This document shows positions 710 through 20,750 of a stretch of DNA of 64,000 bases, piece after piece. The notes below the pieces were generated by a model. The model was not told the DNA's origin and searched no databases. It saw only the letters and a program-made list of their open reading frames with translations. Position 1 is the stretch's first letter, and every line of letters starts with the position of its first letter. The DNA lies in NCBI GenBank assembly GCA_046537975.1, contig JBKHJR010000001.1, forward strand, positions 64,688 to 128,687, read 5' to 3'. Position numbers and translations under genes: made by a program. This DNA comes from Desulfurivibrionaceae bacterium. GTDB taxonomy: Bacteria; Desulfobacterota; Desulfobulbia; Desulfobulbales; SURF-16.

Positions 710-3046
710 ATGGTTGAACTGCCTATAGATGAGCTGCAATCTGAATTCACCTCCGCCCTGGCCCGGAAGCCGGTGGTGGTGGAGGCTCCGCCGGGAAGCG
801 GCAAGTCCACCAGGCTGCCGGTCTGGTGTGCGGAAAGCGGCCGGGTACTGGTGGTGGAGCCCCGGCGCCTGGCCTGCCGTTCCCTGGCCAGGTTCGTGGC
901 CCGGACCCTGGAGGTCCGGCCGGGGGGAGAAGTGGGTTATGCCGTTCGTTTTGAAGGGGAATACACTTCTGCGAGTCGGATTGTCTTTGTCACTCCGGGC
1001 ATTGCCCTGCGCTGGTACGCCGCTGACAGGTTCAGCGGCTTTGATACCGTGATTCTGGACGAGTTCCATGAGAGACGCTGGGACACCGATCTTCTGGCTG
1101 CTTTGCTGCGCACGGGGAACAGGCGGCTGGTCCTTACCTCCGCCACTGTGGAAGGCCGGCGCCTGGCCGATTATCTGGGAGGATACCGCCTGCAGGCAGA
1201 GGGCAAGCTCTTTGAGGTGGACCTGCACTACAGTGGTTCTCCTACTCTGCCCGGAAGCAGGGATCTGGACAAGCGGGTGGCTGAGACCGTAGTCCGGGCC
1301 CTGGAATACAGCCAGGGAGGGGATGTTTTGGTCTTTCTGCCCGGGAAAGGGGAGATTCAGGCGGCCCGGTCCAGACTGGAGAAGAAGTGTCCCCGAGTGG
1401 AGGTCATTCCCCTGCATGCCTCGGTGGATGCCTCCTCTCAGGACAGGGCCCTGGAGATTTCGGAACATTCCCGGGTCATCCTGGCCACCAACGTGGCTGA
1501 GACTTCCCTTACCCTGCCTGGGGTCAGGGTGGTGGTGGACAGTGGCCTGGAACGGAGGACTCATTACCGGGGGGGCCGCACCGTCCTGGCCCTCTCTGTA
1601 ATCTCTCAGGCGGCTGCGGATCAGCGTACCGGGCGGGCCGGCCGACTGGGGCCGGGAGGCTGCTTTCGGCTCTGGAGCAAAGCGGCCCGGCTTCAATCCT
1701 ATACCCCTCCGGAGGTGGTTCGGGAAGACCCGGCCGAGTTCATCCTGGCTGCAGCGGCCTGCGGCGTCAAAATCCGGGAGCTGGAATACCCCGACCCTAT
1801 TCCCGGACCTGCCCTGGACAAGGCCCTGGCCAGGCTCCAGTCCATGGGGGCGGTAGACAGGGAAGGTGTAATTACCGAGCACGGCCGCAGGCTCTTCCCC
1901 CTCCCCCTTGATTCCCAGCTTGCCCATTTGATTGCGGCCTTCAAGGATGAAAAAGTCCGGGCTGACATGGTTGATCTGGCTGCAGCCCTGAACGCCCAGG
2001 GGTCTCTCCTGGCCCGCAACCAGTCCGAGGAAGGCTGGACTGACCTGGAAGAGTTCGCCCCGGAGGCTTGCGACGCCTGTACCCTGGTCCGGCTGGTCCG
2101 GGGAAGACCTCCGGCTTCGCTCCGTTTGAATCAGGCGGCCTTGAGTGAATCCCGGCGCACCGCCGAGCAGATAAGACAGGCCCTGGGGCTGGCTCCTCCG
2201 GAGAGATCAAGGCCTCCGGCCCGGGACCGGCTGGTTGGCGGCATTATTGAGGCAGTCCCGGATCTGGCCTTTGTCAGGAGACTTAAGCGCAGCTGGGCCC
2301 TGGGTAACGGCAGTGAGGAGGTGGAGATCGGCAAGGGGACCAGGATGCCGGGAAAGGCCCAGGCTGCAGTTGTCCTGGACCGGCACAGTATACCGGGCAA
2401 GGGCACGACCAGGACCTTGACCATCGCCACCTGTCTGGCTCCGGCCGGCCTCCAGGAGCTGGCCCGGGCCGGTCTGGGAGACGTGTCCTGCCGCGAGCCC
2501 AGGCTGGAGAATAACCGGATATCAATTACCGCCGAACGCATCTACGCCGGCCGGATTATCGACTCCTGGACTGAGTATCCCGAAGGGGATCGACTGCGCC
2601 GGGCAGTGGCCGAGCTCATCAGTGGCGGCCGTCTCTGGCCCGAAGCAGGGAAACGGCTCCAGGAGGAGATTGGGGCCTGGAACCTTTATGTGAAGCTGGG
2701 ATACGGCGAGGGCGAAGAGGTTAACCTGCAGGACTGGCTGAGGAACAGGCTTGCGGATATCGGCCTGGAGACCGGGCAGGACCTTGAGGCCCTGGAGGCG
2801 GGCGACCTCGAGTTTGAAGGAATCCCGGAGTGGGAGCGGCCCAAATTCGACCGGCAGTATCCCAGGAATCTAAGTCTGGGTGATATGAAACTCAAGGTGG
2901 AATATGAACCGGGTCGCAGGCGTATTACCCTGGTGCGCCTCTCCGGAACCAGAAAGAATACCCCCCGGCGCTGGGAACTTCCCAATTGGGAGAGCAGCTG
3001 GGAATTGAGATACCGGGACGGCAACCGGGTGGTGCCTGTGACTTAA
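710..3046 (+). CDS. hrpB: ATP-dependent DEAH-box helicase, HrpB-like
   Basis: Walker A APPGSGKST and motif II DEFHERR. TSAT and QRTGRAGR helicase motifs. The 778-aa length fits HrpB. Confidence 0.85.
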   Translation: MVELPIDELQSEFTSALARKPVVVEAPPGSGKSTRLPVWCAESGRVLVVEPRRLACRSLARFVARTLEVRPGGEVGYAVRFEGEYTSASRIVFVTPGIALRWYAADRFSGFDTVILDEFHERRWDTDLLAALLRTGNRRLVLTSATVEGRRLADYLGGYRLQAEGKLFEVDLHYSGSPTLPGSRDLDKRVAETVVRALEYSQGGDVLVFLPGKGEIQAARSRLEKKCPRVEVIPLHASVDASSQDRALEISEHSRVILATNVAETSLTLPGVRVVVDSGLERRTHYRGGRTVLALSVISQAAADQRTGRAGRLGPGGCFRLWSKAARLQSYTPPEVVREDPAEFILAAAACGVKIRELEYPDPIPGPALDKALARLQSMGAVDREGVITEHGRRLFPLPLDSQLAHLIAAFKDEKVRADMVDLAAALNAQGSLLARNQSEEGWTDLEEFAPEACDACTLVRLVRGRPPASLRLNQAALSESRRTAEQIRQALGLAPPERSRPPARDRLVGGIIEAVPDLAFVRRLKRSWALGNGSEEVEIGKGTRMPGKAQAAVVLDRHSIPGKGTTRTLTIATCLAPAGLQELARAGLGDVSCREPRLENNRISITAERIYAGRIIDSWTEYPEGDRLRRAVAELISGGRLWPEAGKRLQEEIGAWNLYVKLGYGEGEEVNLQDWLRNRLADIGLETGQDLEALEAGDLEFEGIPEWERPKFDRQYPRNLSLGDMKLKVEYEPGRRRITLVRLSGTRKNTPRRWELPNWESSWELRYRDGNRVVPVT

Positions 3047-3262: not shown

Positions 3263-3309
3263 TATCTTGGATAAGATAAATATCAGCAAAATAATTGGGA
3301 GGGCAGGTC

Positions 3310-3954
3310 GTGACATCTTCATATAAAACTTTGACTGCCAAACAGCAGCGTTTCCTGGATTACCTGAATGACGAGATCAGGAGCAGGGGGTACGCTCCCA
3401 GTCTGCGACAGGCCGCGGCCGACCTCGAGGTCAGCCACGGGGCGGTGGCTCAGCTGATCAGGGCCTTGGAAGATAAGGGATATGTTTATCGGGAGGGCCG
3501 TTACAGCCGTGACCTGCGGGTTCTGGAGGACCATAAGAGCGGGGACGGGAAAACGGCTGAGGACAGCCGCCTGCGGGAGGTGGCTGTTATCGGCCGGATC
3601 ACTGCCGGCATGCCCATCTATGCCCAGCAGGAGTGGGACGGTACCGTGCTGGTGGACGGCCGGATTTTCCGGGGCGCCAATCTCTTTGCTCTGCGGGTCA
3701 AGGGGGATTCCATGCGGGATGCCGGGATCTTTTCCGGGGATCTGGCGATCTGCGAGCCCAGGCAGTTCGCCCGGAACGGGGAGATCGTCGTGGCTCTGAT
3801 CGAAAGTGAAGAGGCCACGGTAAAACGTTTTTTTCTCCATCAGGATAAGGTGGAACTGCGGCCGGAAAATCCCGCCTTCCCGGTGAAACAGTACGATTTC
3901 GGGGATATCCTGATTCAGGGTAAGGTTGTGGGAGTCATCCGGGATGAAGTTTAG
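3310..3954 (+). CDS. lexA: LexA repressor (S24 peptidase)
   Basis: N-terminal winged-HTH region (PSLRQAAADLEVSHGAVAQLIRALEDKGYV). Cleavage site ITAG-MP, catalytic GDSM Ser and VKR Lys. GTG at 3310 sits 6 nt after a GGGAGGG RBS. Confidence 0.9.
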   Translation: MTSSYKTLTAKQQRFLDYLNDEIRSRGYAPSLRQAAADLEVSHGAVAQLIRALEDKGYVYREGRYSRDLRVLEDHKSGDGKTAEDSRLREVAVIGRITAGMPIYAQQEWDGTVLVDGRIFRGANLFALRVKGDSMRDAGIFSGDLAICEPRQFARNGEIVVALIESEEATVKRFFLHQDKVELRPENPAFPVKQYDFGDILIQGKVVGVIRDEV

Positions 3955-3998
3955 ATCTAAGCGTTCACCAGCACCCCTTATTCTTTAAGTCCTTATAC

Positions 3999-5162
3999 AT
4001 GCAACGGACCATAATCCATATCAATATTACCAATTTTGCCGCGGCAGTAGAGCAGGTGGTGGACAGCAGTCTCCGGGAGAGGCCGGTGATCATCGCCCCG
4101 CAGGCGGCCCGGGCCGTAGTTTATGACATGAGTGAAGAGGCCTACAGGCAAGGGATCCGCAAGGGCATGTCCCTGGTCCGGGCCCGATGGCGCTGCCGGG
4201 ATGCGGTGCAGCTCATTCCGCGTCCCGGGCTTTATACCAGGGCGATGGCCGCCCTGCAGAAAGAGATGCGCCCTTATTCCCCTCTTATTGAACAGGCTGA
4301 AGGGGACGGCCATTTCTTTGTCGATGTCAGCGGCAGCACCAGGCTTCTGGGTCCTTCCGCGGATGTGGCCCGGCGCATCCGCAAACAGGTTACCGGCGGT
4401 TTAGGCCTCCGTCCCATCTGGACTGTGGCCCCCAATAAGCTGGTAGCCAAGGTGGCCAGCCGGGTGGTTAAACCGGAGGGAGAGCATATCGTTAAAGACG
4501 GTGATGAGGCCGTCTTTCTCTCTCCTCTTCCGGTCTCTATCCTGCCGGGGCTGCTGCTCCGGGAAAAGGAGCGGCTGAAAGAATTCCAGCTCCACCAGGC
4601 CGGGCAGGTGGCGGCACTCACCCTGGCCCAGCTCAGGTCTGTTTTCGGCAGCCGGGCCCCTTTCATCCAGGCCGCGGTCAGGGGAGAAGACCGGCAGCCG
4701 GTGGCAGCCGGGGAAGAGCGGTCAAATCTCAAGCAGGTTTTCTTTTTTGCCGGGGACAGCAATAACAAACAGCAGGTGGAAGCGGCCCTGGTCAGTCTGG
4801 TGGAAGATCTCGTAAGCCGGCTTCGCCGGCGGCGGCAGAGAGCCCGCCGGACCGGCCTCTGCCTGGAATACTCCGACGGGCGCCGATGCTGGCGTCAGGC
4901 CACCTGTAAAGAGCCGGTTGATGATGAAGACGATCTGCTGGCCTTGGCCCGCCTGGCCCTTGCCCGGACCTGGACCCGTCGGGTGCGGCTGCGGTCCCTG
5001 ACTCTTGTTTTTGATCTTTTGACCGGCTCCGCCAGGCAGTTCAGCCTCTTCCCCCAGCCCGGCCGGGAAAAAAGGCGGCAGCTGCAGGACGCCCTGGATC
5101 AGATCCGTGAACGGCACGGGGTGTCAGGCATCAGACGGGGCACCTCCCTGCCTGTTCTTTAA
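3999..5162 (+). CDS. imuB: ImuB-like inactive Y-family polymerase homologue
   Basis: Y-family N-terminus in which the catalytic acidic residues are replaced: IIHINITNFAAAVE, versus IIHIDMDAFFASVE in the true DinB at 42818-43912. It lies between lexA and dnaE2. Confidence 0.75.
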   Translation: MQRTIIHINITNFAAAVEQVVDSSLRERPVIIAPQAARAVVYDMSEEAYRQGIRKGMSLVRARWRCRDAVQLIPRPGLYTRAMAALQKEMRPYSPLIEQAEGDGHFFVDVSGSTRLLGPSADVARRIRKQVTGGLGLRPIWTVAPNKLVAKVASRVVKPEGEHIVKDGDEAVFLSPLPVSILPGLLLREKERLKEFQLHQAGQVAALTLAQLRSVFGSRAPFIQAAVRGEDRQPVAAGEERSNLKQVFFFAGDSNNKQQVEAALVSLVEDLVSRLRRRRQRARRTGLCLEYSDGRRCWRQATCKEPVDDEDDLLALARLALARTWTRRVRLRSLTLVFDLLTGSARQFSLFPQPGREKRRQLQDALDQIRERHGVSGIRRGTSLPVL

Positions 5163-5164
5163 TC

Positions 5165-8131
5165 ATGCTTCTCATCCGTTCCCACTATTCCCTGGGCTGG
5201 GGAGTCTGTTCGCCCTCGACCATCTGCCGGACCGCCAGAGATAAGGGGTGGGAGGCTGTTGCCATGATAGACCGCAACAACCTCTACGGTCTCTGGCCCT
5301 TCCTGGCCGCAGCCCGCCGGAACGGGCTCAGACCGATCATCGGGGCCGAACTCCTGGATAGTCATGGTCAGCAGGCCATCTGCCTGGTCAAGGACGATGC
5401 CGGTTACAGCAATCTCTGCCGCCTGCTCAGCGCCCGGCACTGCCGGGGCGGATTCAGCCTGGGTACGGCTCTGCCTCAGTATAAGCAGGGCCTTCTGGTC
5501 CTGAGCCGGGATAAGACTTTATTGGGGGCCTGGCAGGACAAGGGGGTGGAGGTGGCGGCTGATCTGGGTCGCAGTCCCGGGAGGCGGAGCCATAAACTGC
5601 GGCGCTTCGCCTTGGAGCGCGCCATCCCCCTCTGCTTTCACAGCGACAGTCTTTTTTGCAGGCCGAAAGATCACCAACTTCACCGTCTGCTGCGGGCGAT
5701 CACCACCGGCAGCAGTCTAAGCGCCCTTAAAGCCGGACAGGTAGCGGATCCGGGGGCTGTTCTTACCGGACCTGAAGAGCTTGAAAAAAAATTTGCCCTG
5801 TGCCCCGAGGCTGCCGGACATACCAAAAGGCTGACTGCTGCCTGCAGTTTTGCCGGTCCCCGGTTCGGTCTGGTCCTGCCGCCCCATCCCGGCAAAGAAA
5901 AGGCCGGAGATCTCCTGCACCGGGCCGCCTATAAAGGAGCCAGGCAGCGTTACGGCGCTGATCTCTCCGAGGCGGTAGTGGAACGCCTGGACCACGAACT
6001 GGCGGTTATCCATGCCATGGGTTTTTCCTCCTATTTTCTGGTGGTGCGGGACATTATTCATCATAAGGGGATCCGCCGCCGCATCTGCGGCCGGGGTTCC
6101 GGGGCTGCTTCCCTGGTGGCCTATGTCCTCTATATCACCAATGTCTGCCCCTTGAAGCACAACCTCTATTTTGCCCGCTTTCTCCATCCGGGCCGCCGGG
6201 ATCCGCCGGATATAGATGTGGATTTTGCCTGGGATGAACGGGATGAGGTCCTGGCTGACGTTCTGGAGCAGTTCTCCGGCCGGGCTGCTCTGGTCAGTAA
6301 TCATGTCCTCTTCCAGCCCCGGATGGCTATCCGGGAAACTGCCAGGGCCTACGGCCTTCCGGAAAGGGAGATCAGCCGTATAACCGGAAGGGTAGGGAGA
6401 CTCCGGTCTTTGGATGAGGTTGATCTTCTGGATCAGCTCCGGAGGCTTCCCGGCCTGCGGGACTGTGATTTTCCCGAGCCCTGGCCGGAGATCGTCTCCC
6501 TGGCTTCAGGTCTGGTGGGTATTCCCCGTCACCTTTCTGTCCATCCCGGCGGGGTGATTCTCACTCCGGAGCCCATCAGTGACTATGTCCCGGTGGAAAT
6601 GACCGGCAAAGGGGTGCCGGTTATTCACTGGGAAAAGGATGGGGCGGAGGAGGCTGGATTGGTAAAGATCGATCTCCTGGGCAACCGCAGCCTGGGGGTG
6701 ATCCGCGACTGTCTGGCCAATGTCCGGGCCAATAATATAAGCTTTGACTATCGTTTCTGGCAGCCGGAAGAAGATCGGCGTACCAGAATGCGAATTGCCG
6801 GAGGCGGAACCATGGGCTGTTTTTATATCGAGAGTCCTGCCATGCGACTTTTGCAGGAGAAGGCGGGGAGCGGCGATTTCGAGCAGCTGGTGCTCCAGTC
6901 TTCCATCATCCGGCCGGCAGCCAATGAGTTTATCCGCGAATATGTCCGCCGCCTGCATGGCGGAAGCTGGCGGCCCCTGCATCCTCTGGTGGGTGATGTG
7001 CTTGATGAGAGCTACGGGCTCATGGTCTATCAGGAGGATGTCTCCCGGGTAGCCGTGGCCCTGGCCGGATTTTCCGAGGCGGAGGCGGACGGCCTGCGCA
7101 AGGTGATGAGTAAAAAGGACAAGGAGAAGAGACTGGAGGATTATGAAAAAAAATTCGCCGCCGGAGCCGCAGACCGGGGAGTAAGCCGGGAGGTAACCCG
7201 GGAGATTTGGGAGATGATCATGAGTTTTTCCGGATATTCCTTCTGCAAACCCCACAGCGCCAGCTATGCCCGGGTCTCTTTTCAGGCCGCCTTTCTTAAG
7301 GAGCATTTCCCGGCCGAGTTCATGGCTGCGGTCCTCTCCAATCAGGGGGGCTACTACTCCGCTTTTGCCTACGTCTCTGAGGCCAGACGCCTGGGGTTGA
7401 AGGTCCTGCCCCCTGATGTCAATCAGAGTCGGACAGCCTGGCGGGGGCAGGCGGATAGATTAAGAACGGGTCTGATGGCGGTCAGCCGGTTGAGCCGCCA
7501 TACCCTGAAGGCTATCAGTGACAAAGTCCGGCAGCGGTCTTTTGCCGGGTTGGTGGATTTCCTGGACAGGGTAAGGCCCGGGGAGGATGAGGCCCGGGCC
7601 CTGATCCAGGCCGGGGCATTGGACAGCTTGGACCCTGAGGGCAACCGCACCGTTCTGCTCTGGAATCTGGCTCAGCATCGGAATAGACGGACAAATACAG
7701 CCCGGGGCCTTTTCAGATCCCCTCTGCCGACTCCTCCACCCCTGCCGCCTCCCGAGACCCGGGAGCGGCTGCGGCGGGAGTTCAAGGTCCTGGGATTTCT
7801 CTGTGAGCGTCATCCCATGGATCTCTACAGGGACAGGCTGGCCGGGACCGGATGCCTGGCGATCAGCAGACTGAGAGAGCATATCAACCGCAGAGTGACT
7901 GTAGCGGGCTGGTTGATATGCGGCAAGCTGCTCCGGACCAGGGAAGGGGAGGCCATGGAGTTTCTGAGCTTCGAGGATGAAAAGGCCCTGGTGGAGACTA
8001 CCTTTTTCCCCCGGGTCTACCAGCGCTATGCCCATATCCTGAGTCCCGGCCGGCCTTATCTGCTTACCGGACTGGTGGAGGAGGACTACGGGGCCGTAAC
8101 CCTGACCGTGGAGGAGATACAGCGGCTATAA
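5165..8131 (+). CDS. dnaE2: Error-prone DNA polymerase III alpha homologue DnaE2 (ImuC)
   Basis: 988 aa with a PHP domain, a Pol III alpha core (GRGSGAASLVAY, PDIDVDF, FYIESPAM) and a C-terminal OB region. Starts 3 nt after imuB. Confidence 0.9.
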   Translation: MLLIRSHYSLGWGVCSPSTICRTARDKGWEAVAMIDRNNLYGLWPFLAAARRNGLRPIIGAELLDSHGQQAICLVKDDAGYSNLCRLLSARHCRGGFSLGTALPQYKQGLLVLSRDKTLLGAWQDKGVEVAADLGRSPGRRSHKLRRFALERAIPLCFHSDSLFCRPKDHQLHRLLRAITTGSSLSALKAGQVADPGAVLTGPEELEKKFALCPEAAGHTKRLTAACSFAGPRFGLVLPPHPGKEKAGDLLHRAAYKGARQRYGADLSEAVVERLDHELAVIHAMGFSSYFLVVRDIIHHKGIRRRICGRGSGAASLVAYVLYITNVCPLKHNLYFARFLHPGRRDPPDIDVDFAWDERDEVLADVLEQFSGRAALVSNHVLFQPRMAIRETARAYGLPEREISRITGRVGRLRSLDEVDLLDQLRRLPGLRDCDFPEPWPEIVSLASGLVGIPRHLSVHPGGVILTPEPISDYVPVEMTGKGVPVIHWEKDGAEEAGLVKIDLLGNRSLGVIRDCLANVRANNISFDYRFWQPEEDRRTRMRIAGGGTMGCFYIESPAMRLLQEKAGSGDFEQLVLQSSIIRPAANEFIREYVRRLHGGSWRPLHPLVGDVLDESYGLMVYQEDVSRVAVALAGFSEAEADGLRKVMSKKDKEKRLEDYEKKFAAGAADRGVSREVTREIWEMIMSFSGYSFCKPHSASYARVSFQAAFLKEHFPAEFMAAVLSNQGGYYSAFAYVSEARRLGLKVLPPDVNQSRTAWRGQADRLRTGLMAVSRLSRHTLKAISDKVRQRSFAGLVDFLDRVRPGEDEARALIQAGALDSLDPEGNRTVLLWNLAQHRNRRTNTARGLFRSPLPTPPPLPPPETRERLRREFKVLGFLCERHPMDLYRDRLAGTGCLAISRLREHINRRVTVAGWLICGKLLRTREGEAMEFLSFEDEKALVETTFFPRVYQRYAHILSPGRPYLLTGLVEEDYGAVTLTVEEIQRL

Positions 8132-11010: not shown

Positions 11011-11742
11011 ATGCCGGTCCACAGTGATGTAAATGACATATCTTTAGCTGACCATGGTGAAGCCCGCATTGAATGGGCTCTGAAGGAAATGCCTGTCGTC
11101 CGGAACCTGATGGAGAGATTTGCCCGGGAAAAACCTCTGGCCGGGGGGATTGCCATGCGGGCCAAAGGACTTGGCGCTAACGTAGTAGTAACCGAAGTCG
11201 AGCCCCTGCGGGCTCTGGAAGCTGCCATGGACGGCTATCGGGTTATGCCTATGCTGGAAGCAGCGACGATCTCCGATTTCATCATCAGCGCCACGGGGGA
11301 CAAAAATGTGGTTGATAAGGCCCATTTTGAAGTGATGAAGGATGGCTGCGTGGTCGCAAATTCAGGTCATTTCAATGTAGAGATCAATATCCCCGCTTTG
11401 GAGGAAATGGCGATAAGAAAGGAACAGCCCCGGGAATACGTGGATGAATACTACCTGCCTTCGGGGCGCACTGTCCGCCTGTTGGCCAGGGGAAGACTGG
11501 TTAATCTGGCAGCTGCCGAAGGTCATCCCGCCGCGGTAATGGACATGAGTTTCGCCAACCAAGCACTCTGTGCCGAATTCCTCTGCAACAATAAAACGGG
11601 CCTGGAAAACAGGGTGCATCCTGTCCCGGGTCCAATCGACCGGAAGATTGCCGGCTTGAAGCTTGAGGCAATGAAGATCGGCATTGATAAACTGACTGAT
11701 GAGCAGACCAGGTATTTAGCCTCCTGGAAGGAGGGAACCTGA
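11011..11742 (+). pseudogene. ahcY: Adenosylhomocysteinase with a large in-frame internal deletion
   Basis: The N-terminus ([37 protein letters not shown]) joins directly to the late NAD-domain sequence ([20 protein letters not shown]...). Only 243 aa remain versus about 415-475 for the family. The C-terminus is intact ([24 protein letters not shown]...YLASWKEGT). Confidence 0.75.
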
Positions 11743-14499: not shown

Positions 14500-14546
14500 C
14501 CGCAAATCCTGCAGGCTGTTCGCTGTCTGGTCCTTTCCACCCTTGC

Positions 14547-14572
14547 CCGGCATTGACCGGCCGGATTTTTTT
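14547..14572 (+). terminator. Possible intrinsic terminator after yceI
   Basis: CCGGC (14547-14551) pairs with GCCGG (14560-14564) across an 8-nt loop, followed by a T7 run. The stem is short. Confidence 0.4.
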
Positions 14573-14592
14573 GCAGGCCTTGGTATATCATT

Positions 14593-14663
14593 AGAGATTG
14601 GCAGACGGATTATTTCATCCCGTCTTTCACGGCGGTGATTATCAGCTGTATATGCCAATCTCT
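14593..14663. repeat. 71-bp element bounded by a perfect 11-bp inverted repeat (AGAGATTGGCA / TGCCAATCTCT)
   Basis: Arms at 14593-14603 and 14653-14663. An inner GACGG...CCGTC hairpin is also present. It lies in the AT-rich leader upstream of the split-ATPase operon. Confidence 0.6.
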
Positions 14664-14880
14664 TTACCATTTGCCCTCCAATTGCCTTAAATAATTAACT
14701 GGTCAATGTCCTCTTTTCTTTTCCCGAGATTATTTGTTATCCTGCTCCACTATCACCGGTAATCTTTTACTTTAAAGGGTGCTTGGCAAAATAAATTTAG
14801 GGCGGTAATAAGATGATTAAGTTAAAATTATCGGTTTAAGATATTCTTTCCGGAAAGAAAAAAATAAGCTGTTTTTTACC

Positions 14881-16209
14881 ATGATCAGCCGCATAGAACT
14901 GAAAAATTTCATGTCCCATCCCCATACTGTGATTGAACCGGCCGAGGGACTCACGGTATTGGTGGGCGACAACAACACCGGCAAATCCGCGGTGATCAAT
15001 GCCCTCCAGGTGTTGTGCGCCAATCTCTCCGGCGACTACATGGTTCGGCACGGGGCAAAGGAGTGCCTGGTCCGGGTGGAGACCGGTGAGGGGCACGAAC
15101 TGGAGTGGCGGAGAAAGGGTAAGGTGGTCAGTTACAGGATTAACGGCCGGGATATCCACAGGCTGGGGGGCGCGGTTCCGGAAGATCTTCACGACCTGTT
15201 GCGACTCCCCCGAGTGGAAGCGGAAAACGAGACCTTTGATATTCATTTCGGTGAACAGAAGGACCCCATATTTCTGCTGAACACCTCTCCGGGCAAACGG
15301 GCCGCCTTTTTCGCCTCCTCTTCGGACACCATAAAGCTCATTGAGATGCAGGGCCTTCATAAAAGGCGGGTTCAGGATGCTAAGGGCCGGGAGGGCAGAC
15401 TGGTCAGGGAAGAGGAACGCTATAAAAAAAGGCTGGAGAAGCTGGCTCCGGTGGAGGTTATAAATGACAGGCTGAACACCCTGGAAGCTGATTACAAGGC
15501 CCTTGACCAGCGTCTTGCCGGGATCGCTGAACTCGGGCGGATAATCGGGGATCTGGCCGGGGCGGGACAACAGGTCAGGCGTTGGCAGGATGTGTTGGGG
15601 ACAATCGAGGGGCTTCCTCAGCCCCCGGTTCTGGAAGACAGCGTCTCTTTGGCCGAGACTCTAAGGAAGATGGAAAAAATCAGGATAAGTATCCTGCATA
15701 GAAAGGAGCAGAGCAGGATTCTCAGCAGTCTGACCGGGCCACCGGAAATATTTGATACACCCGGTCTGAGAGACATGCTCGTCAGGCTCCGGAAATACAG
15801 TCTTGAGATCAGCCGGGAAGAGGAGCGGACCTCTGTTCTTGAAAACTGCCCCCAGCCTCCGGTAATGGAGGATCCTGGTGCTTTAAGTGAGTTAATTAGA
15901 AAAATGGCCGAGGCCGGACAGGAGGTCAGGTCCCAGGCGGAGGTCGAATCCTGTCTTTCCGTTCTGGAACAGCCCCCGGAACTGTTTGATGTTTCGGGAC
16001 TCAGGGATTATCTGGCCATAAGGGACAAGGCGGAAAAGGACAGGCGGAACCGGCAGGCCGAGTTTGCAAAGGCAAAGCAGGAAGTTAAGCAGGCGGAGAA
16101 GGATTTCCGGGAGTTTATCGACCGCACCGGGATCTGTCCCACCTGCGGTCAGGATATGGATTTTAACAGGCTGTTGAGCACGGTTATCCCGGAAGGAGAA
16201 CAGTCATGA
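14881..16209 (+). CDS. SMC/Rad50/SbcC-like ATPase, N-terminal head half (Walker A) with a long coiled coil ending in a CPTC zinc-hook-like motif
   Basis: MISRIELKNFMSH...VLVGDNNTGKSAVINAL gives the ABC/SMC N-terminus and P-loop. About 270 aa of charged heptad-rich sequence follow. GICPTCGQ sits at residues 417-424, and the protein ends 18 aa later. Confidence 0.8.
   Translation: MISRIELKNFMSHPHTVIEPAEGLTVLVGDNNTGKSAVINALQVLCANLSGDYMVRHGAKECLVRVETGEGHELEWRRKGKVVSYRINGRDIHRLGGAVPEDLHDLLRLPRVEAENETFDIHFGEQKDPIFLLNTSPGKRAAFFASSSDTIKLIEMQGLHKRRVQDAKGREGRLVREEERYKKRLEKLAPVEVINDRLNTLEADYKALDQRLAGIAELGRIIGDLAGAGQQVRRWQDVLGTIEGLPQPPVLEDSVSLAETLRKMEKIRISILHRKEQSRILSSLTGPPEIFDTPGLRDMLVRLRKYSLEISREEERTSVLENCPQPPVMEDPGALSELIRKMAEAGQEVRSQAEVESCLSVLEQPPELFDVSGLRDYLAIRDKAEKDRRNRQAEFAKAKQEVKQAEKDFREFIDRTGICPTCGQDMDFNRLLSTVIPEGEQS
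15616..16083 (+). repeat. Tandem duplication of a 78-codon (234-bp) unit inside the coiled-coil arm
   Basis: Unit 1 is PQPPVLED..L.E.LRKM...PPEIFDTPGLRDML. Unit 2 is PQPPVMED..L.ELIRKM...PPELFDVSGLRDYL. Register is the same, with about 40% identity over the first ~56 residues. Confidence 0.7.
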
Positions 16210-17165
16210 AGGAGATTTTTACCAGCGATGACTATCAGGGACTCCTGGCCATCGGCGATCCTCATTTAGAAGGAAGGGTCCCCGGTTTCCGCCGGGACGA
16301 CTATCCCGGGGTGATTCTGGAGAAACTGCGCTGGGCCCTGGATTATGCCCGACAGGAAAATCTTTTGCCTCTTCTTTTGGGAGATATCTTTCATCTGCCC
16401 AGGAACAATCCCAATTGGCTGCTGGTCAAAGTTATTCAGCTTCTCAACCGGGAGATTGTGGGTATTTACGGTAATCATGATGTCCATGAGAACCGGATAG
16501 GCCAGGACGACAGCATTAGCGTGGTTGCGGAGTCCGGTCGGATAATCCTGCTGGATACCGAGACCGTGGTCAAGACCAGGATCAGGAACCGGGAAGTGAT
16601 TATCGGAGGCACGCCTTGGGGATGTAAACTGCCCGATGGTCTGGATCTTTCCGGTAGTAGGGATAGCGGACCTTCGGTGATCTGGCTCTGTCATCACGAT
16701 CTCAAGGTCCCGGGCTATGAAGAACAGGGCTATATCCGGCCCCGGGAGCTGTCCGGAATAGATCTGGTGGTCAACGGCCACATCCATCGTCATCTGGAAG
16801 AAGTTCGCAAGGGAGAGACCCTCTGGCTGACCCCGGGCAGCATCAGCCGGCGGGCCAGAAGTGATGCCGCCCGGAGCCACCGGCCTTCGGTCCTGCTCCT
16901 TGAACCCGGTGAGGATGACTGGTCTTATAAACGGCTGGAGGTGCCCCACCGTCCTTTTGAGGAGGTCTTTTATGACGCGGTGCTTGAAGAGGATAGTGAG
17001 GAAGAGGGTTCGGCCTTTGTGGCCGGCCTGGCTGAGCTTCAGGCCAGGAAAACCGAGACCGGGGCAGGACTGAAAAACTTTCTGGAAAAGAATTTGAGCC
17101 GATTTGATGAAGATATTGCCGGTGAAGTACTCCGGCTGGCAGAGGAGGTTACGGATAATGACTGA
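16206..17165 (+). CDS. Mre11/SbcD-like calcineurin-fold metallophosphoesterase
   Basis: Five phosphoesterase motifs in order: GDPH, GDIFH, GNHD, CHH and GHIHRH. Acidic helical C-terminal tail. The start overlaps the upstream stop (ATGA). Confidence 0.85.
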   Translation: MKEIFTSDDYQGLLAIGDPHLEGRVPGFRRDDYPGVILEKLRWALDYARQENLLPLLLGDIFHLPRNNPNWLLVKVIQLLNREIVGIYGNHDVHENRIGQDDSISVVAESGRIILLDTETVVKTRIRNREVIIGGTPWGCKLPDGLDLSGSRDSGPSVIWLCHHDLKVPGYEEQGYIRPRELSGIDLVVNGHIHRHLEEVRKGETLWLTPGSISRRARSDAARSHRPSVLLLEPGEDDWSYKRLEVPHRPFEEVFYDAVLEEDSEEEGSAFVAGLAELQARKTETGAGLKNFLEKNLSRFDEDIAGEVLRLAEEVTDND

Positions 17166-17463
17166 ACAGGAGAGCAGCAGAGAAACCATTGAGCAGCTCA
17201 CCAAACGCTATCAGAATCTGGATAAAAGGAAGACCACGGCCGAGGCTAACCTGGAAACCGCCGGTAGCCGTCTGGAAGAGCTCAAGAAAGAGGCTCGGGA
17301 AAAATACGGCACCGACGATCTGGAAGAGTTAAGAAAAAAACTTTCCGAGATGGAAACGGAAAACGAGAGAAAGAGGGCCGAGTATCAGGAGTCCCTGGAC
17401 CGGATCGAAAAGGATCTGGAAGAGGTGGAAAAGAAGTATAAGACGGAAGACAATGGAAGCTGA
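17158..17463 (+). CDS. Small (101 aa) all-coiled-coil protein
   Basis: MTEQESSRETIEQLTKRYQNLDKRKTTAEANLE... is highly charged and helical. ATG 17158 overlaps the previous stop by 8 nt, and its own stop overlaps the next start by 11 nt. Confidence 0.6.
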   Translation: MTEQESSRETIEQLTKRYQNLDKRKTTAEANLETAGSRLEELKKEAREKYGTDDLEELRKKLSEMETENERKRAEYQESLDRIEKDLEEVEKKYKTEDNGS

Positions 17464-18100
17464 AAAGTCCATCAGATCTCCGCAGGAGTCCAGAAACCGG
17501 CAGACCAAGTTGGCCGCCTTCAAGGAGCAGAATGAAAGGGATCTGGCTGCAGTCCGCTCAGAACTTGAAGAGATCCGGAAGTACCTGTCCCTGTCGGAGC
17601 GGGTAACCGAGGCCCTGGACAGCCTGAGCCAGCAGCTTTTCCGCGAGCTTCTGGACGTGATTGAACACAAGCTGACCATTGCCCTGCAGGAGGTGCTGGA
17701 GCAGCCCATTGCCCTGAAGTCCGGGGTGGACTGGAAGCGGAACGCGGCCAGTGTGGATTTCTGGATTGAGAGGGACGGCAACAGGGAAGATATCATGAAG
17801 GGGCAGGGCGGATCAGTGGCCAACATCCTGTCCGTGGGCCTGCGCCTCTTTGCCCTGACTACCCTGGATGAAAGCCGGCACCGGCGGTTTCTGGTCCTGG
17901 ATGAACAGGACTGCTGGCTCCACCCTGATCTGGTCCCTCCCCTGGTCAAGATCATCCATGAGGCAGGCCGGGCCTTGAATTTCCAGATCCTGATGGTCTC
18001 GCATCATAACCCGGATCTTTTCAGGGGGTATGCTGACCGGGTCTACCGCCTGGTTCCCCAGGGTGGGGATGGAGTAAAGCTGACCCTGGAGGATGATTGA
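17453..18100 (+). CDS. SMC/Rad50/SbcC-like ATPase, C-terminal head half (signature-like motif, Walker B, H-loop)
   Basis: About 60 aa of N-terminal coiled coil. Then GQGGSVANILSVGLRLF (signature/C-loop-like), RRFLVLDEQDCWL (Walker B and D-loop) and ILMVSHH (H-loop). There is no Walker A. Confidence 0.8.
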   Translation: MEAEKSIRSPQESRNRQTKLAAFKEQNERDLAAVRSELEEIRKYLSLSERVTEALDSLSQQLFRELLDVIEHKLTIALQEVLEQPIALKSGVDWKRNAASVDFWIERDGNREDIMKGQGGSVANILSVGLRLFALTTLDESRHRRFLVLDEQDCWLHPDLVPPLVKIIHEAGRALNFQILMVSHHNPDLFRGYADRVYRLVPQGGDGVKLTLEDD

Positions 18101-19455: not shown

Positions 19456-19684
19456 TCAGTTTTTTCCGCTGGAATTTAATGTGCTGAGATAAAGCAGCAG
19501 TACTTTAGCCAAAGAAGCCGGAAAAGTCAATGAGCAGGCATCTTCCTTGACACTAAAAGGTTAATGAAGTATTCAGTTAATTATTACGCCGTAAGCGTAC
19601 CCTCAAGCAAAATTAATCGCAGAGTATTCTGTTTTTTGTCAACCCTCCCCGCCTGTGCGGGGATCATCTTAATATGTGGATAGA

Positions 19685-20032
19685 ATGTTAGGTATCGGCC
19701 TGCCTGAACTTATAGTAATTCTGGGGATCGCCTTAATTGTAGTGGGCCCGGAAAAACTGCCCGAGCTTGCCAGGTCCCTGGCCAAGCAGATGGTCCAGCT
19801 TAAAAAGACGGCTGAAGAAATTAAGGAGAGCCTGAATGAAGAGATGGAAGATCAGGATTCCCACCAGCCTGAAGAAGATATTGTCAAACTGCCTTCCGAG
19901 ACTTTTGAAGAGTCCGAAGTAGATGACGATGAAGAGTCCGGCGCTGAGGCGGCTTCCACCGAGTCCATGGCCTCCTCTGAAGCCGCAACCTCTGAGGAAC
20001 CAGACAGCAAGACCGATGCCTCTTCTTCCTGA
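19685..20032 (+). CDS. tatB: Twin-arginine translocase TatA/TatB-family subunit (TatB-like length)
   Basis: MLGIGLPELIVILGIALIVVGPEKLPELARSLAK is the typical TatA/B TM plus amphipathic helix. Acidic tail. Lies upstream of tatC. Confidence 0.8.
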   Translation: MLGIGLPELIVILGIALIVVGPEKLPELARSLAKQMVQLKKTAEEIKESLNEEMEDQDSHQPEEDIVKLPSETFEESEVDDDEESGAEAASTESMASSEAATSEEPDSKTDASSS

Positions 20033-20750
20033 GCACCTCCAGAGCCATCTCCAGGAGCTGCGGCGCAGAGTTTTAATAATTTTTGCAACCATTCTGCTCT
20101 GCGGGGCAGGGGCTTTCTTTTTTGCCAAGCCCCTGGCCCAGCTCTGCATGCTTCCTCTTTTTCAGGCCGATCCCGAGTTGGCCGGTCTGGTCTATACCCA
20201 TCTAACCGAGGCCTTTATCGCCTATCTCAAGGTTTCAGTCCTGGCTGGTCTGGCTGTTGCCTTCCCCATCATTCTCTACCAGGTATGGATGTTTGTTGCT
20301 CCCGGTCTTTTCCAGGAAGAAAAGGCGGTGTTTTTCAGGATAGTGTTCTGGGGCGGGCTCCTCTTCCTTTTCGGTATTGTTTTTTCATTCGTGGCTATTA
20401 TGCCGGAACTGCTTTCCTTTTTTATGGAATTCCACCGGGAGAACCTGGAGCCCAAGCTCAAGCTGGGAGCCTATCTGACCTTTGTGATCCGGACCTGTAT
20501 AACTTTCGGCCTGGCCTTCGAAATTCCCTTTCTAATGGCTGCCGTCGGTAAAACCGGCCTGCTGACCCCGGTTTATTTCGTCAAACAGAGGAAGTACTTT
20601 TACCTGGCGATTCTGGTTCTCTCTTTTCTGCTCAGCGCCGGTGAAATGCTGGCGGCTGTTCTCCTGGCTGTTCCCCTTTTCGGCCTCTATGAACTGGGCA
20701 TTGTTATCATGCGTTTTTTTAAGCCTTCCGGAGCTTCCAAGTCCGCCTGA
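20016..20750 (+). CDS. tatC: Twin-arginine translocase subunit TatC
   Basis: MPLLPEHLQSHLQELRRRVL... followed by six TM helices typical of TatC. The internal ATG at 20016 is preferred over the longer listed ORF. Confidence 0.9.
   Translation: MPLLPEHLQSHLQELRRRVLIIFATILLCGAGAFFFAKPLAQLCMLPLFQADPELAGLVYTHLTEAFIAYLKVSVLAGLAVAFPIILYQVWMFVAPGLFQEEKAVFFRIVFWGGLLFLFGIVFSFVAIMPELLSFFMEFHRENLEPKLKLGAYLTFVIRTCITFGLAFEIPFLMAAVGKTGLLTPVYFVKQRKYFYLAILVLSFLLSAGEMLAAVLLAVPLFGLYELGIVIMRFFKPSGASKSA

What the first reader, a model, noticed from the sequence alone, without database searches (positions are those of the whole stretch)
14881..18100. Four-gene operon encoding a three-way split Rad50/SbcC-like ATPase with an Mre11/SbcD-like nuclease gene between the pieces
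Seen in sequence. Gene 1 (442 aa) has an SMC/ABC N-terminal head with Walker A (GDNNTGKS), about 270 aa of coiled coil, and a CPTCG motif (nt 16135-16146) 18 aa from its C-terminus. That is where the Rad50/SbcC zinc hook (CxxC) sits at the apex of the coiled coil. Gene 2 (319 aa) has all five Mre11/SbcD phosphoesterase motifs. Gene 3 (101 aa) is pure coiled coil. Gene 4 (215 aa) starts with about 60 aa of coil, then carries a signature-like GQGGS, Walker B FLVLDEQD and H-loop VSHH, but no Walker A. All junctions overlap (ATGA, 8 nt, 11 nt), which suggests stoichiometric co-translation. Inference. The ascending arm and hook, the descending arm, and the C-terminal head of one Rad50/SbcC-type protein appear to be encoded as separate polypeptides. 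The nuclease gene sits in the middle rather than in the canonical sbcD-sbcC order. A simple frameshift pseudogene cannot explain that arrangement. SMC-like ATPase plus effector modules are a recurrent theme in anti-phage and anti-plasmid systems (Lamassu, Wadjet, Gabija, PARIS). I do not recognise this architecture as any named system. It could equally be a divergent repair complex.
Basis: partly seen in the sequence, partly recalled or inferred. Interest (0 to 1): 0.85.

Follow-up and report, generated by a model that had tools for sequence, protein, structure and literature searches.

The report
Split, rearranged Rad50–Mre11-like repair operon
Four overlapping genes encode a DNA-end-processing machine of the Rad50/Mre11 (SbcCD) type whose ATPase is naturally cut into pieces right after its zinc hook, an uncharacterised arrangement conserved in hundreds of bacterial species that departs from the single folded-back chain expected of such proteins.

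Summary
Four intact, overlapping genes lie at 14881-18100. g1 is an ABC/SMC N-lobe with a helical arm and a CPTCG motif. g2 is a metallophosphoesterase with all metal-binding motifs. g3 is a 101-aa helical protein. g4 is a helix plus an ABC C-lobe. The split is real and old: a g1 relative occurs in 281 species-level genomes, and the best 80 span at least five phyla. All four genes lie in the same order in 68 of 85 loci, flanked by unrelated housekeeping genes. g1 and g4 are complementary halves of one Rad50-like head. Natural relatives fuse them, an AF2 model of the fusion is confident, and Rad50 is the best match among solved structures. In the fused relatives the order is permuted (C-lobe, N-lobe, arm, CxxC, end), and their operon is a cyclic rotation (g3 | g4·g1 | g2). 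The arm is modular: a fixed proximal helix, then 3-6 copies of a 39-aa proline-interrupted repeat, then a fixed 40-aa helix and the hook. Its length does not co-vary with g3 or g4, so g3 cannot be the whole descending arm. No defence-system model or paper matches. Best reading: a housekeeping SbcCD/Mre11-Rad50-type nuclease and a new variant of a known kind.

The parts
14881..16209 (+). g1 (442 aa). An ABC/SMC-type N-lobe with Walker A GDNNTGKS and Q-loop Q126 spans residues 1-148. A proximal arm helix follows at 149-243. Four 39-aa PP-interrupted repeats span 224-379, overlapping the C-terminal end of that helix, and a distal helix spans 372-416. The zinc-hook-like CPTCG sits at 419-423, followed by a 19-aa tail.
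   Evidence: Pfam AAA_23, AAA_15 and SMC_N hit the N-terminus. NCBIfam Rad50 models hit the N-terminus at E 1e-9, and the hook region 374-427 matches the middle of halophile Rad50 models. Conservation is shown, the repeats, and the AF2 model. The best Foldseek match is the N-terminal fragment of P. furiosus Rad50, 1F2U.
15550..16017 (+). The repeat module inside g1. It holds four tandem 39-aa units (residues 224-379), each a helix of about 28-30 residues followed by a loop of about 10 residues with the motif LxxLxxPPxLxD. Orthologues carry 3-6 copies.
   Evidence: The PP motifs lie at residues 248, 287, 326 and 365, an exact 39-aa period. A unit HMM counts 3, 4, 5 or 6 units in 24, 39, 28 and 8 orthologues. 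The first unit always starts near residue 225, and the last always ends 40 aa before the CxxC. AF2 places helices at 254-282, 294-321, 332-361 and 372-416, with dips in confidence at the PP loops.
16135..16149 (+). CPTCG, a Rad50/SbcC-type CxxC zinc-hook motif located near the C-terminus of g1.
   Evidence: C419, C422 and G423 are invariant and P420 is nearly so. A C[PA]xC motif (seen as CPTC, CPVC, CPIC or CPAC) lies 21-42 aa (mostly 21-33) from the C-terminus in 64 of 68 loci. It is also invariant in the fused family (C634 and C637 in A4).
16206..17165 (+). g2 (319 aa), a binuclear metallophosphoesterase related to Mre11/SbcD, with a conserved C-terminal helical tail from about residue 265 to 315.
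   Evidence: Pfam Metallophos scores 28 bits against a cutoff of 21.5. All metal-ligand motifs are invariant. A profile search against the PDB puts Mre11 (P. furiosus, T. maritima) and SbcD in the top ten, at E 1.7e-4 to 0.02. There is no PADLOC hit.
17158..17463 (+). g3 (101 aa), a small helical protein made of two segments of about 40 residues joined at a conserved YGTDD motif.
   Evidence: It has no curated family, only weak coiled-coil hits. Its 41 stand-alone homologues are 92-151 aa long. Its conservation is shown. It is homologous to the small gene upstream of the fused ATPases (hhalign probability 98.9%, E 2.5e-17).
17453..18100 (+). g4 (215 aa). An N-terminal helix of 81 residues forms the head-proximal descending arm. 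It is followed by an ABC C-lobe with the signature-like GQGGS, Walker B plus catalytic Glu (LVLDE), a D-loop region and the H-loop SHH. There is no Walker A.
   Evidence: Alignment A3 has 57% mean column identity, with these motifs invariant. In the AF2 fusion model, helix 2-82 and the lobe have pLDDT above 90. The g4 module sits at the N-terminus of 600-720-aa fused relatives.
14500..14880 (+). The A+T-rich intergenic leader upstream of g1. A terminator-like hairpin of the upstream yceI-like gene lies at 14547-14564. A perfect 16-nt palindrome, TTCTTTCCGGAAAGAA, lies at 14844-14859.
   Evidence: The palindrome is not conserved in other loci. No convincing sigma-70 promoter was found on the + strand.

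Best explanation
The four genes encode one ATP-driven DNA-end/hairpin-processing complex of the Rad50-Mre11 (SbcCD) type, assembled from separate polypeptides.

Shown: g1 supplies the Walker A/Q-loop lobe and g4 supplies the signature/Walker B/H-loop lobe. The two are complementary halves of one Rad50-like ABC head.

Inferred from Rad50/SbcC biochemistry: two g1·g4 heads sandwich two ATP molecules. g4's 81-residue N-terminal helix pairs antiparallel with g1's proximal helix (about 149-230) to form the base of the arm. A dimer of g2, a Mre11/SbcD-like Mn-dependent nuclease, docks on the heads. Its conserved C-terminal helices act like the Rad50-binding domain of Mre11. g1's CPTCG binds Zn together with a second g1 and so closes or tethers the arms.

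Inferred from matching lengths only: g3, with two helices of about 40 residues, completes the 40-residue helix under the hook. The 3-6 intervening 39-aa repeats have no dedicated partner. They either pair with the same repeats of the second g1 or stack on themselves.

The translationally coupled overlaps favour equimolar synthesis. In this family the complex is a chromosomal housekeeping repair or replication-intermediate nuclease, not a defence system. The gene layout g1-g2-g3-g4 is a cyclic rotation of the g3 | g4·g1 | g2 operon of a megaplasmid-borne sister family. That suggests it arose by tandem duplication and partial deletion of an ATPase-then-nuclease operon broken just after the hook.
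For: - Intact genes, overlaps and motifs.
- Conservation of the split: 281 species-level genomes carry a g1 relative, and the best 80 include Desulfobacterota, Planctomycetota, Spirochaetota, Chloroflexota, Bipolaricaulia and a Bacillota MAG, among them isolates and complete genomes (Gimesia algae, Thalassoglobus). All four genes lie in the same order in 68 of 85 loci.
- Head complementarity: an exhaustive HMMER search with g4 finds 600-720-aa proteins with the g4 module at residues about 10-210, followed by Walker A, Q-loop, repeats and a terminal CPxC.
- AF2 of the window's g4+g1 concatenation gives mean pLDDT 82.7 and pTM 0.61, with the head above 90. In g1 alone, the P-loop (23-32) and residues 110-148 fall below pLDDT 50.
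- Foldseek against the PDB puts P. furiosus and M. jannaschii Rad50 at ranks 1-6, then cohesin SMC3, RecF and RecN.
- NCBIfam Rad50 models match the N-terminus and the hook region.
- g2's best matches among solved structures are Mre11 and SbcD.
- All four modules are orthologous between the two families and keep the same cyclic order.
- Housekeeping context: 120 flanking proteins from 30 loci match 117 Pfam families, and none is shared by more than 5 of them. PADLOC gives only stray kinase and ATPase hits. No relatives were found in IMG/VR. g4 is 50-75% identical across phyla.
Against: - No biochemical or genetic data exist.
- No multimer model or coordinates were available. The g1:g4 helix pairing, the docking of g2 and the place of g3 are therefore all inferred.
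- The g2 profile matches to Mre11/SbcD are weak (E about 1e-4), and no capping-domain or SbcD/Mre11 family model was hit.
- All Rad50/SbcC curated models score far below their cutoffs (36 bits against 1000).
- Zn binding was not tested.
- I could not check whether these genomes lack a canonical sbcCD.
- The sister family sits on megaplasmids next to a DUF2726 protein, so a role in conflict between mobile elements is not excluded for that branch.
Confidence: 0.72

Rival explanations
1. It is an anti-phage or anti-plasmid defence system of the SMC-like-ATPase-plus-nuclease kind, comparable to Lamassu or Wadjet. It would sense foreign DNA ends and degrade them, or kill the cell.
For: - PADLOC gives generic hits to the g1 N-terminus from GajA, AriA, LmuB and PtuA. 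One LmuB model aligns over residues 2-427 at E 7.6e-9, and g4 hits mad3 at 9e-8.
- Lamassu is thought to derive from SbcCD (PMC12663957).
- Fused relatives lie on megaplasmids beside a DUF2726 gene.
Against: - The hits are P-loop or coiled-coil matches only, and g2 has no PADLOC hit at all.
- No LmuA/LmuC, JetA/B/D or TOPRIM partners are present.
- The flanks are housekeeping and unrelated between lineages, with no enrichment for defence genes.
- No relatives were found in 2.9 M viral contigs.
- Sequence conservation across phyla is high (g4 50-75% identity), which is unusual for defence genes.
Confidence: 0.12
2. It is a literal three-way split of a canonical Rad50. g1 would be the ascending strand plus hook, g3 the distal descending strand and g4 the proximal descending strand plus C-lobe. 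Together they would rebuild a normal full-length antiparallel coiled coil.
For: - g1 ends about 20 aa after the CxxC, and g3 immediately precedes g4 in both families.
- The fixed 40-aa helix before the hook matches g3's helices of about 40 aa, and g1's proximal helix of about 75-95 aa matches g4's 81-aa helix.
Against: - g1's arm varies from 3 to 6 units of 39 aa while g3 (96-114 aa) and g4 (mostly 212-241 aa) stay constant, with no co-variation (rho 0.10, p 0.43).
- With four units, about 270 arm residues face at most about 160 helical residues of g3 plus g4.
- No relative joins g3 to g4 or g1 to g3. The single apparent g3-g4 fusion (P0132) looks like a frameshifted fragment.
Confidence: 0.2
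3. It is an artefact or a decaying gene: a frameshifted sbcC pseudogene, or an assembly error with a nuclease gene inserted.
For: None beyond the unusual layout.
Against: - Every piece is an intact ORF with its own start, and g3 has a strong Shine-Dalgarno sequence.
- The same four-gene layout recurs in 68 independent loci, including complete isolate genomes.
- All catalytic residues are invariant.
Confidence: 0.01

Closest known systems
Bacterial SbcCD, and archaeal or eukaryotic Mre11-Rad50
   Same: It has a bipartite ABC head of the CxxC-SMC class, a long helical arm and a CPxCG zinc-hook motif. It is genetically coupled to a binuclear metallophosphoesterase whose closest solved relatives are Mre11 and SbcD. 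Rad50 is the best structural match for both lobes.
   Different: - The ATPase is not one chain. The N-lobe, arm and hook form one protein that ends about 20 aa after the CxxC, and the C-lobe is a second protein.
- A third small helical protein is always present.
- The nuclease gene sits between the ATPase pieces rather than in sbcD-sbcC order.
- The arm contains 3-6 proline-interrupted 39-aa repeats.
- Curated Rad50/SbcC models score far below their cutoffs.
Megaplasmid-borne fused g4·g1 ATPase operons (Variovorax, Bosea, Rhizobium, Pseudomonas and Vibrio megaplasmids), annotated only as 'AAA family ATPase' and 'metallophosphoesterase'
   Same: All four modules are homologous: the small helical protein (hhalign 98.9%), the C-lobe, the N-lobe with repeat arm and terminal CPxC, and the Metallophos protein. 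The cyclic gene order is the same.
   Different: - The C-lobe and N-lobe are fused in circularly permuted order, and the operon starts with the small gene.
- Identity is 23-28% (A4).
- The operons sit on large non-mobilizable plasmids near rep/par, recJ, thyA, gyrase and topoisomerase genes, not on chromosomes.
Engineered two-chain Rad50 catalytic domain (PDB 1F2U/1F2T), with N- and C-terminal fragments present as separate chains
   Same: A Rad50 head built from separate N-lobe and C-lobe polypeptides. 1F2U is the top Foldseek hit for g1 and ranks 2-3 for the g4+g1 model.
   Different: It is a laboratory truncation without arm or hook. Here the split is natural, and the arm and hook stay on the N-lobe chain.
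Phage T4 gp46/gp47 and the Mre11/Rad50 fusion proteins of Mimivirus, plasmids and phages (Yoshida et al. 2011, PMC3175470)
   Same: These are non-canonical gene arrangements of the same machine. T4 has the ATPase-then-nuclease order (from my own knowledge). The Bacillus phage 0305phi8-36 protein A7KV18, reported there as lacking one P-loop segment, is the top BFVD structural hit at E 2.6e-13.
   Different: Those are fusions of nuclease and ATPase, or ordinary single-chain ATPases. No split at the hook, no permuted head and no third small subunit has been described for them.
Lamassu (LmuB, LmuC and LmuA)
   Same: It has a CxxC SMC-like ATPase derived from SbcC plus small accessory proteins. One LmuB model aligns over g1 (PMC12663957).
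   Different: There are no LmuA or LmuC homologues. The effector here is an Mre11-like phosphoesterase with no PADLOC match. The genomic context is housekeeping.

Membership tests
Rad50/SbcC (CxxC-type SMC-like ABC ATPase) | ABC head with Walker A and Q-loop in an N-lobe, and signature, Walker B, D-loop and H-loop in a C-lobe | tested here: met
   All motifs are present and invariant, but on two proteins, g1 and g4. The AF2 head is confident, and the best PDB matches are Rad50.
Rad50/SbcC (CxxC-type SMC-like ABC ATPase) | One polypeptide whose two lobes are joined by an intramolecular antiparallel coiled coil that folds back at the hook | tested here: not met
   g1 ends 19 aa after CPTCG. The C-lobe is a separate gene in all 68 loci that carry the four genes. 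The fused relatives are permuted and also end at the CxxC.
Rad50/SbcC (CxxC-type SMC-like ABC ATPase) | CxxC zinc hook at the tip of the arm that dimerises through Zn | tested here: inconclusive
   The CP[TVIA]CG motif is invariant, and residues 374-427 match the hook region of NCBIfam Rad50_Halo and PRK02224 at E 1e-4 to 1e-3. Zn binding and dimerisation cannot be tested here.
Rad50/SbcC (CxxC-type SMC-like ABC ATPase) | Score above the curated cutoff of a Rad50/SbcC family model | tested here: not met
   The best score is NF041034 Rad50_Sulf at 36.6 bits against a cutoff of 1000, matching the N-terminal 70 residues only.
Rad50/SbcC (CxxC-type SMC-like ABC ATPase) | Operonic linkage to an Mre11/SbcD nuclease | tested here: met
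   g2 overlaps g1 and g3, and the linkage is kept in 68 loci and in the fused family.
Mre11/SbcD nuclease | Calcineurin-type phosphoesterase motifs I-VI, including the motif III His | tested here: met
   D18/H20, D60, N90/H91/D92, H163/H164/D165 and G191/H192/H194 are invariant in 30 sequences.
Mre11/SbcD nuclease | Closer to Mre11/SbcD than to other metallophosphoesterases | tested here: inconclusive
   A profile search against the PDB puts Mre11 or SbcD in all top ten places, but only at E 1.7e-4 to 0.02. The best NCBIfam hits are YfcE and PdeM fragments below their cutoffs. No structural model of g2 could be made, because the alignment rows were not eligible.
Mre11/SbcD nuclease | Capping domain and a C-terminal helical Rad50-binding domain | not tested
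   A conserved helical C-terminal tail is present (S269 to the end). Its fold and its binding were not modelled.
Lamassu | LmuB together with LmuC and an LmuA effector | tested here: not met
   Only a generic LmuB hit on g1. g2 has no PADLOC hit, and g3 and g4 have no LmuA or LmuC hits.
Wadjet / MksBEFG | A JetC/MukB-like SMC with kleisin (JetA), KITE (JetB) and a TOPRIM nuclease (JetD) | tested here: not met
   Only weak coiled-coil hits of g3 to JetC models (E at or above 0.006). No JetA, JetB or JetD.
Gabija / PARIS / OLD-family ATPase-TOPRIM systems | An ABC ATPase of about 350-600 aa fused to, or paired with, a TOPRIM nuclease | tested here: not met
   The GajA and AriA hits cover only g1 residues 1-50, the P-loop. 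There is no TOPRIM domain, and the partner is a metallophosphoesterase.

The most novel reading that the evidence does not exclude
This family would be an SMC-like machine whose arm is not an intramolecular antiparallel coiled coil. The chain runs from the head to the zinc hook and stops. The variable 39-aa PP repeats pair homotypically with the second g1, or form a self-stacking helical ribbon. A separate small subunit, g3, caps the hook. If so, the family is a natural experiment showing that covalent continuity through the hook is dispensable for Rad50-type function. The permuted and rotated operons would then record how it arose.
Probability: 0.35. Interest if true: 0.8.

Novelty: new variant of a known kind. 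Interest (0 to 1): 0.62.

Why it matters
Rad50/SbcC and all SMC proteins are defined by one chain that folds back on itself, so that a long antiparallel coiled coil links the two head halves. How much that continuity, the arm length and the hook matter for function is still debated.

Here nature has cut the chain just after the hook and kept the pieces as separate, translationally coupled genes in hundreds of species. It has added a dedicated small subunit and made the arm length adjustable in 39-aa steps. In a sister lineage the two head halves are re-fused in the opposite order.

This gives structural biologists a ready-made split and permuted system for asking what the arm and hook do. It also shows that a likely core DNA-repair nuclease of Planctomycetota and many Desulfobacterota is currently annotated only as 'AAA family ATPase', 'metallophosphoesterase' or 'hypothetical'. 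Finally, it documents operon-level circular permutation as a route of protein evolution.

Tried and rejected
- **Pseudogene or assembly artefact.** Rejected on conservation across independent assemblies.
- **Named defence systems.** PADLOC gave only P-loop and coiled-coil matches, and nothing for g2. The flanks show no defence enrichment.
- **Phage origin.** Two IMG/VR scans found nothing, and the fused protein has no match in the phage collection. The only hit for g4 was a stand-alone C-lobe gene in Microbacterium phage Magritte. Its neighbours turned out to be clamp-loader, sliding-clamp and PD-(D/E)XK genes, not partners.
- **Pseudo-complex AF2 model of g3+g4+g1.** A block alignment of separate orthologues was misaligned by MAFFT, with g3 placed on g4's helix, so it was not used.
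- **SOS regulation.** I looked for a shared operator between the lexA upstream region in this window and the g1 leader, and for known LexA boxes. None was convincing. The 16-nt palindrome in the leader is not conserved elsewhere.
- **Literature.** Five full-text searches found no description of a split or permuted Rad50/SbcC with this operon. The most relevant survey, Krishnan et al. 2020 (NAR 48:10045), is not held, so prior description there cannot be excluded.

Full report
**Observation.**
The window carries four intact, co-directional ORFs on the + strand:
- g1, 14881-16209, 442 aa
- g2, 16206-17165, 319 aa
- g3, 17158-17463, 101 aa
- g4, 17453-18100, 215 aa

They overlap by 4, 8 and 11 nt. 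The g3 start at the ATG is supported by a GGAGG 8 nt upstream and by NCBI's identical 101-aa annotation (P0391). The window matches a Desulfurivibrionaceae MAG (P0001 is 100% identical to g1). Upstream lies a yceI-like gene with a terminator-like hairpin and a 380-nt A+T-rich leader. Downstream, purA converges on the operon.

**Family-level identity of each protein.**
- g1 hits only generic P-loop/SMC N-terminal models in Pfam: AAA_23, AAA_15 and SMC_N. In NCBIfam, Rad50 models hit its N-terminus at E 1e-9. Residues 374-427, around CPTCG, also match the mid-protein hook region of two halophile Rad50 models. All these scores are far below the curated cutoffs.
- g2 passes the Pfam Metallophos threshold.
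- g3 and g4 have no curated family.
- PADLOC gives P-loop-only or coiled-coil-only hits for g1, g3 and g4. It gives nothing for g2.

**The split is conserved.**
- The g1 homologues listed are nearly all 390-540 aa long, and none reaches the length of an unsplit SbcC/Rad50.
- The g4 homologues listed are about 175-245 aa long.
- The g3 homologues are 92-151 aa long, nearly all 92-117 aa.
- One scan of 185,579 species genomes found 281 that encode a g1 relative. The best 80 come from Desulfobacterota, Planctomycetota (Pirellulaceae, Gimesia, Phycisphaerae, Tepidisphaeraceae), Chloroflexota, Bipolaricaulia and a Bacillota MAG. Spirochaetota were found by a separate look-up.
- In 68 of 85 fetched loci, all four genes lie in the order g1-g2-g3-g4. 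Most of the others are truncated contigs.
- These include complete or isolate genomes, Gimesia algae CP036343 and Thalassoglobus neptunius. An assembly artefact or pseudogene is therefore excluded.
- Catalytic residues are invariant:
  - g1: GxNNxGKS and the Q-loop Q126.
  - g4: GQGGS, LDEQDCW and SHH.
  - g2: D18/H20, D60, N90-H91-D92, H163-H164-D165 and G191-H192-x-H194.

**g1 and g4 are halves of one head.**
- An exhaustive HMMER search with g4 against 1.84 billion representatives gave 459 hits at E ≤ 1e-10. Besides the proteins of about 220 aa, it returned a large set of 600-720-aa proteins. In these the g4-like module lies at the N-terminus, about residues 10-210.
- Their sequences and Pfam hits show that Walker A, a Q-loop (QKxPxFLL), proline-punctuated repeats and a C-terminal CPxC follow directly.
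- No hit among the best 150 places the g4 module at the C-terminus of a long protein. The nearest relatives are therefore split or circularly permuted, never canonical.
- I concatenated the window's g4 and g1 in that natural order, aligned the result with 59 fused proteins and ran AlphaFold2. The mean pLDDT was 82.7 and pTM 0.61. pLDDT exceeded 90 through both lobes, through g4's helix 2-82 and through g1's proximal helix.
- g1 modelled alone leaves its P-loop (23-32) and residues 110-148 below pLDDT 50. This fits a lobe that needs its partner, with the caveat that the two alignments differ.
- Foldseek against the PDB ranks Rad50 first for both models (9A9J, 1F2U, 4NCJ, 3QKT, 3AV0). Cohesin SMC3, RecF and RecN follow. 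Because of the permutation, only one lobe aligns at a time.
- 1F2U is an engineered two-chain Rad50 head. A split head is therefore known to be viable in vitro.

**The operon is a cyclic rotation of a sister operon.**
- The fused ATPases lie in operons of the form: small gene (about 100 aa), then g4·g1, then Metallophos.
- The small gene is homologous to g3 (hhalign probability 98.9%, E 2.5e-17, 95 columns).
- Their Metallophos proteins align with g2 over the full length and carry all the motifs.
- Both families thus share the cyclic order g1→g2→g3→g4. This differs from sbcD-sbcC.
- A simple route, which is inference, starts from an ATPase-then-nuclease operon. Tandem duplication and complementary truncation, with a break just after the hook, would give either layout. 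The direction of change is undetermined.
- The fused family occurs on 21 large plasmids that PLSDB types as non-mobilizable. They belong to Variovorax, Bosea, Rhizobium, Methylorubrum, Pseudomonas, Vibrio, Aeromonas, Alteromonas and Acidiphilium. The operon lies near rep/par, recJ, thyA, gyrase and topoisomerase genes.

**The arm is modular and does not behave like a two-stranded fold-back.**
- Window g1 has four exact 39-aa tandem repeats, with PP at residues 248, 287, 326 and 365.
- A unit HMM was applied to 110 orthologues. It finds 3, 4, 5 or 6 units in 24, 39, 28 and 8 proteins, with median lengths of 417, 446, 484.5 and 525 aa.
- The first unit always begins near residue 225. The last unit always ends 40 aa before the CxxC. 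The tail after the CxxC is about 24 aa.
- With an in-register alignment, AF2 models each unit as a helix of 28-30 residues (pLDDT 83-95) followed by a loop of about 10 residues at LxxLxxPPxLxD. pTM is only 0.31, so the overall path of the arm is unknown.
- g3 (96-114 aa) and g4 (mostly 212-241 aa) do not change with g1 length (Spearman rho 0.10, p 0.43).
- So g4's 81-residue helix can pair with g1's fixed proximal helix, and g3's two segments of about 40 residues match the fixed 40-residue helix under the hook. The variable repeats have no dedicated partner.
- Homotypic pairing between the two g1 arms, or self-stacking, would tolerate any copy number. This is inference and is the main unresolved point.
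- The one apparent g3-g4 fusion (P0132) looks like a frameshifted fragment.

**g2 as the nuclease.**
A profile of 30 g2 sequences finds Mre11 (P. furiosus, T. maritima) and SbcD as its ten best PDB matches. The E-values are only 1.7e-4 to 0.02, and the next families start at 0.08. A conserved helical C-terminal tail (S269 to the end) is placed like the Rad50-binding helices of Mre11. This was not modelled. I therefore call g2 Mre11/SbcD-like, not a demonstrated member.

**Repair or defence?**
- In 30 loci, the 120 nearest flanking proteins match 117 different Pfam families. None is shared by more than five proteins. The families include phosphoglycerate kinase, pantoate transferase, an ATP synthase subunit and glycosyltransferases.
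- PADLOC finds only two Ser/Thr kinases and two ATPases among them.
- The four contexts examined in detail are all housekeeping and unrelated to one another.
- No relatives were found in IMG/VR.
- g4 is 50-75% identical across phyla.
- These points favour a vertically maintained housekeeping function. They do not prove it.
- BFVD holds phage proteins of about 200 aa that superpose on the g4 part (TM 0.72-0.79). It also holds A7KV18 of Bacillus phage 0305phi8-36. Yoshida et al. (PMC3175470) described that protein as an Mre11/Rad50 fusion lacking one P-loop segment. Split heads may therefore be more widespread in mobile elements.

**Comparison with what is known, and novelty.**
- The complex works like SbcCD or Mre11-Rad50.
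- Tested features that are met: the bipartite ABC head, the linkage to a nuclease and the CxxC motif.
- Tested features that are not met: the defining single-chain fold-back topology and the curated model scores.
- Five full-text searches found no description of this architecture. The Lamassu evolution paper does not mention split or permuted forms. The ABC-ATPase survey of Krishnan et al. 2020 could not be read.
- I rate it a new variant of a known kind.
- The function is probably ordinary. The architecture would surprise SMC and Rad50 specialists and is directly testable. It combines a natural split at the hook, a permuted sister form, an obligatory small subunit and a copy-number-variable proline-interrupted repeat arm.

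**Confidence.**

| Claim | Confidence |
|---|---|
| The four genes form one conserved module | near certain |
| g1+g4 form a Rad50-like head | about 0.9 |
| Mre11-like nuclease partner and an SbcCD-like DNA-processing role | about 0.7 |
| Housekeeping rather than defence | about 0.75 |
| The specific placement of g3 and of the repeats | low, not modelled |

Noticed in passing
window 3295-8131 (+): A lexA gene (TIGR00498, 171 bits, above its cutoff) is followed by a Y-family polymerase (387 aa, DinB/ImuB-like). Next comes a 988-aa DnaE-type polymerase that scores close to the 'error-prone DNA polymerase' model. The three look like an SOS mutagenesis cassette, about 7 kb upstream of the operon. 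I found no operator shared with the g1 leader.
   Followed up: partly
window 11011-11742 (+): A 243-aa ORF corresponds only to the C-terminal half of adenosylhomocysteinase (model positions about 220-417 of 418). The N-terminal half is missing from this frame, so the gene may be truncated or frameshifted.
   Followed up: no
window 14844-14859: A perfect 16-nt palindrome, TTCTTTCCGGAAAGAA, lies 22 nt upstream of the g1 start codon and could be an operator. It is not conserved upstream of g1 in 81 other loci. Only L016 has TTCCGGAA at a similar position.
   Followed up: partly
window 710-3046 (+): A 778-aa DEAH-box helicase matches HrpB over its N-terminal 435 residues only (338 bits against a cutoff of 546). 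The C-terminal part was not identified.
   Followed up: no
P0115, P0116 (g1 relatives, 651 and 580 aa): These g1 variants keep the N-lobe and repeats. The CPxC hook is replaced by a hydrophobic, membrane-like stretch and an unrelated C-terminal region.
   Followed up: no
P0131, P0137, P0143, P0149 (g4 relatives, 475-531 aa): These g4 orthologues (about 45-52% identity) carry an extra C-terminal region of 270-300 aa with no Pfam match.
   Followed up: no
L094 284-934 (Microbacterium phage Magritte, gene 2 'exonuclease'): A stand-alone g4-like C-lobe protein (216 aa, 28.5% identity, E 2e-9) lies at the left end of a 133-kb phage genome. The neighbouring 'ASCE ATPase' genes are clamp-loader-like and sliding-clamp-like, and the N-lobe partner was not found.
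   Followed up: partly
L086 153-1183; L091 5452-6434: In the fused megaplasmid family, a DUF2726 protein and a hypothetical protein of about 137 aa precede the small g3-like gene. In Variovorax the block lies next to recJ, parAB and repB, and thyA lies downstream.
   Followed up: no
window 19676-20750 and L004 4832-5972: tatA/B and tatC lie next to the four-gene operon both in this window and in a Desulfobacterales genome. This is local synteny within Desulfobacterota only.
   Followed up: no
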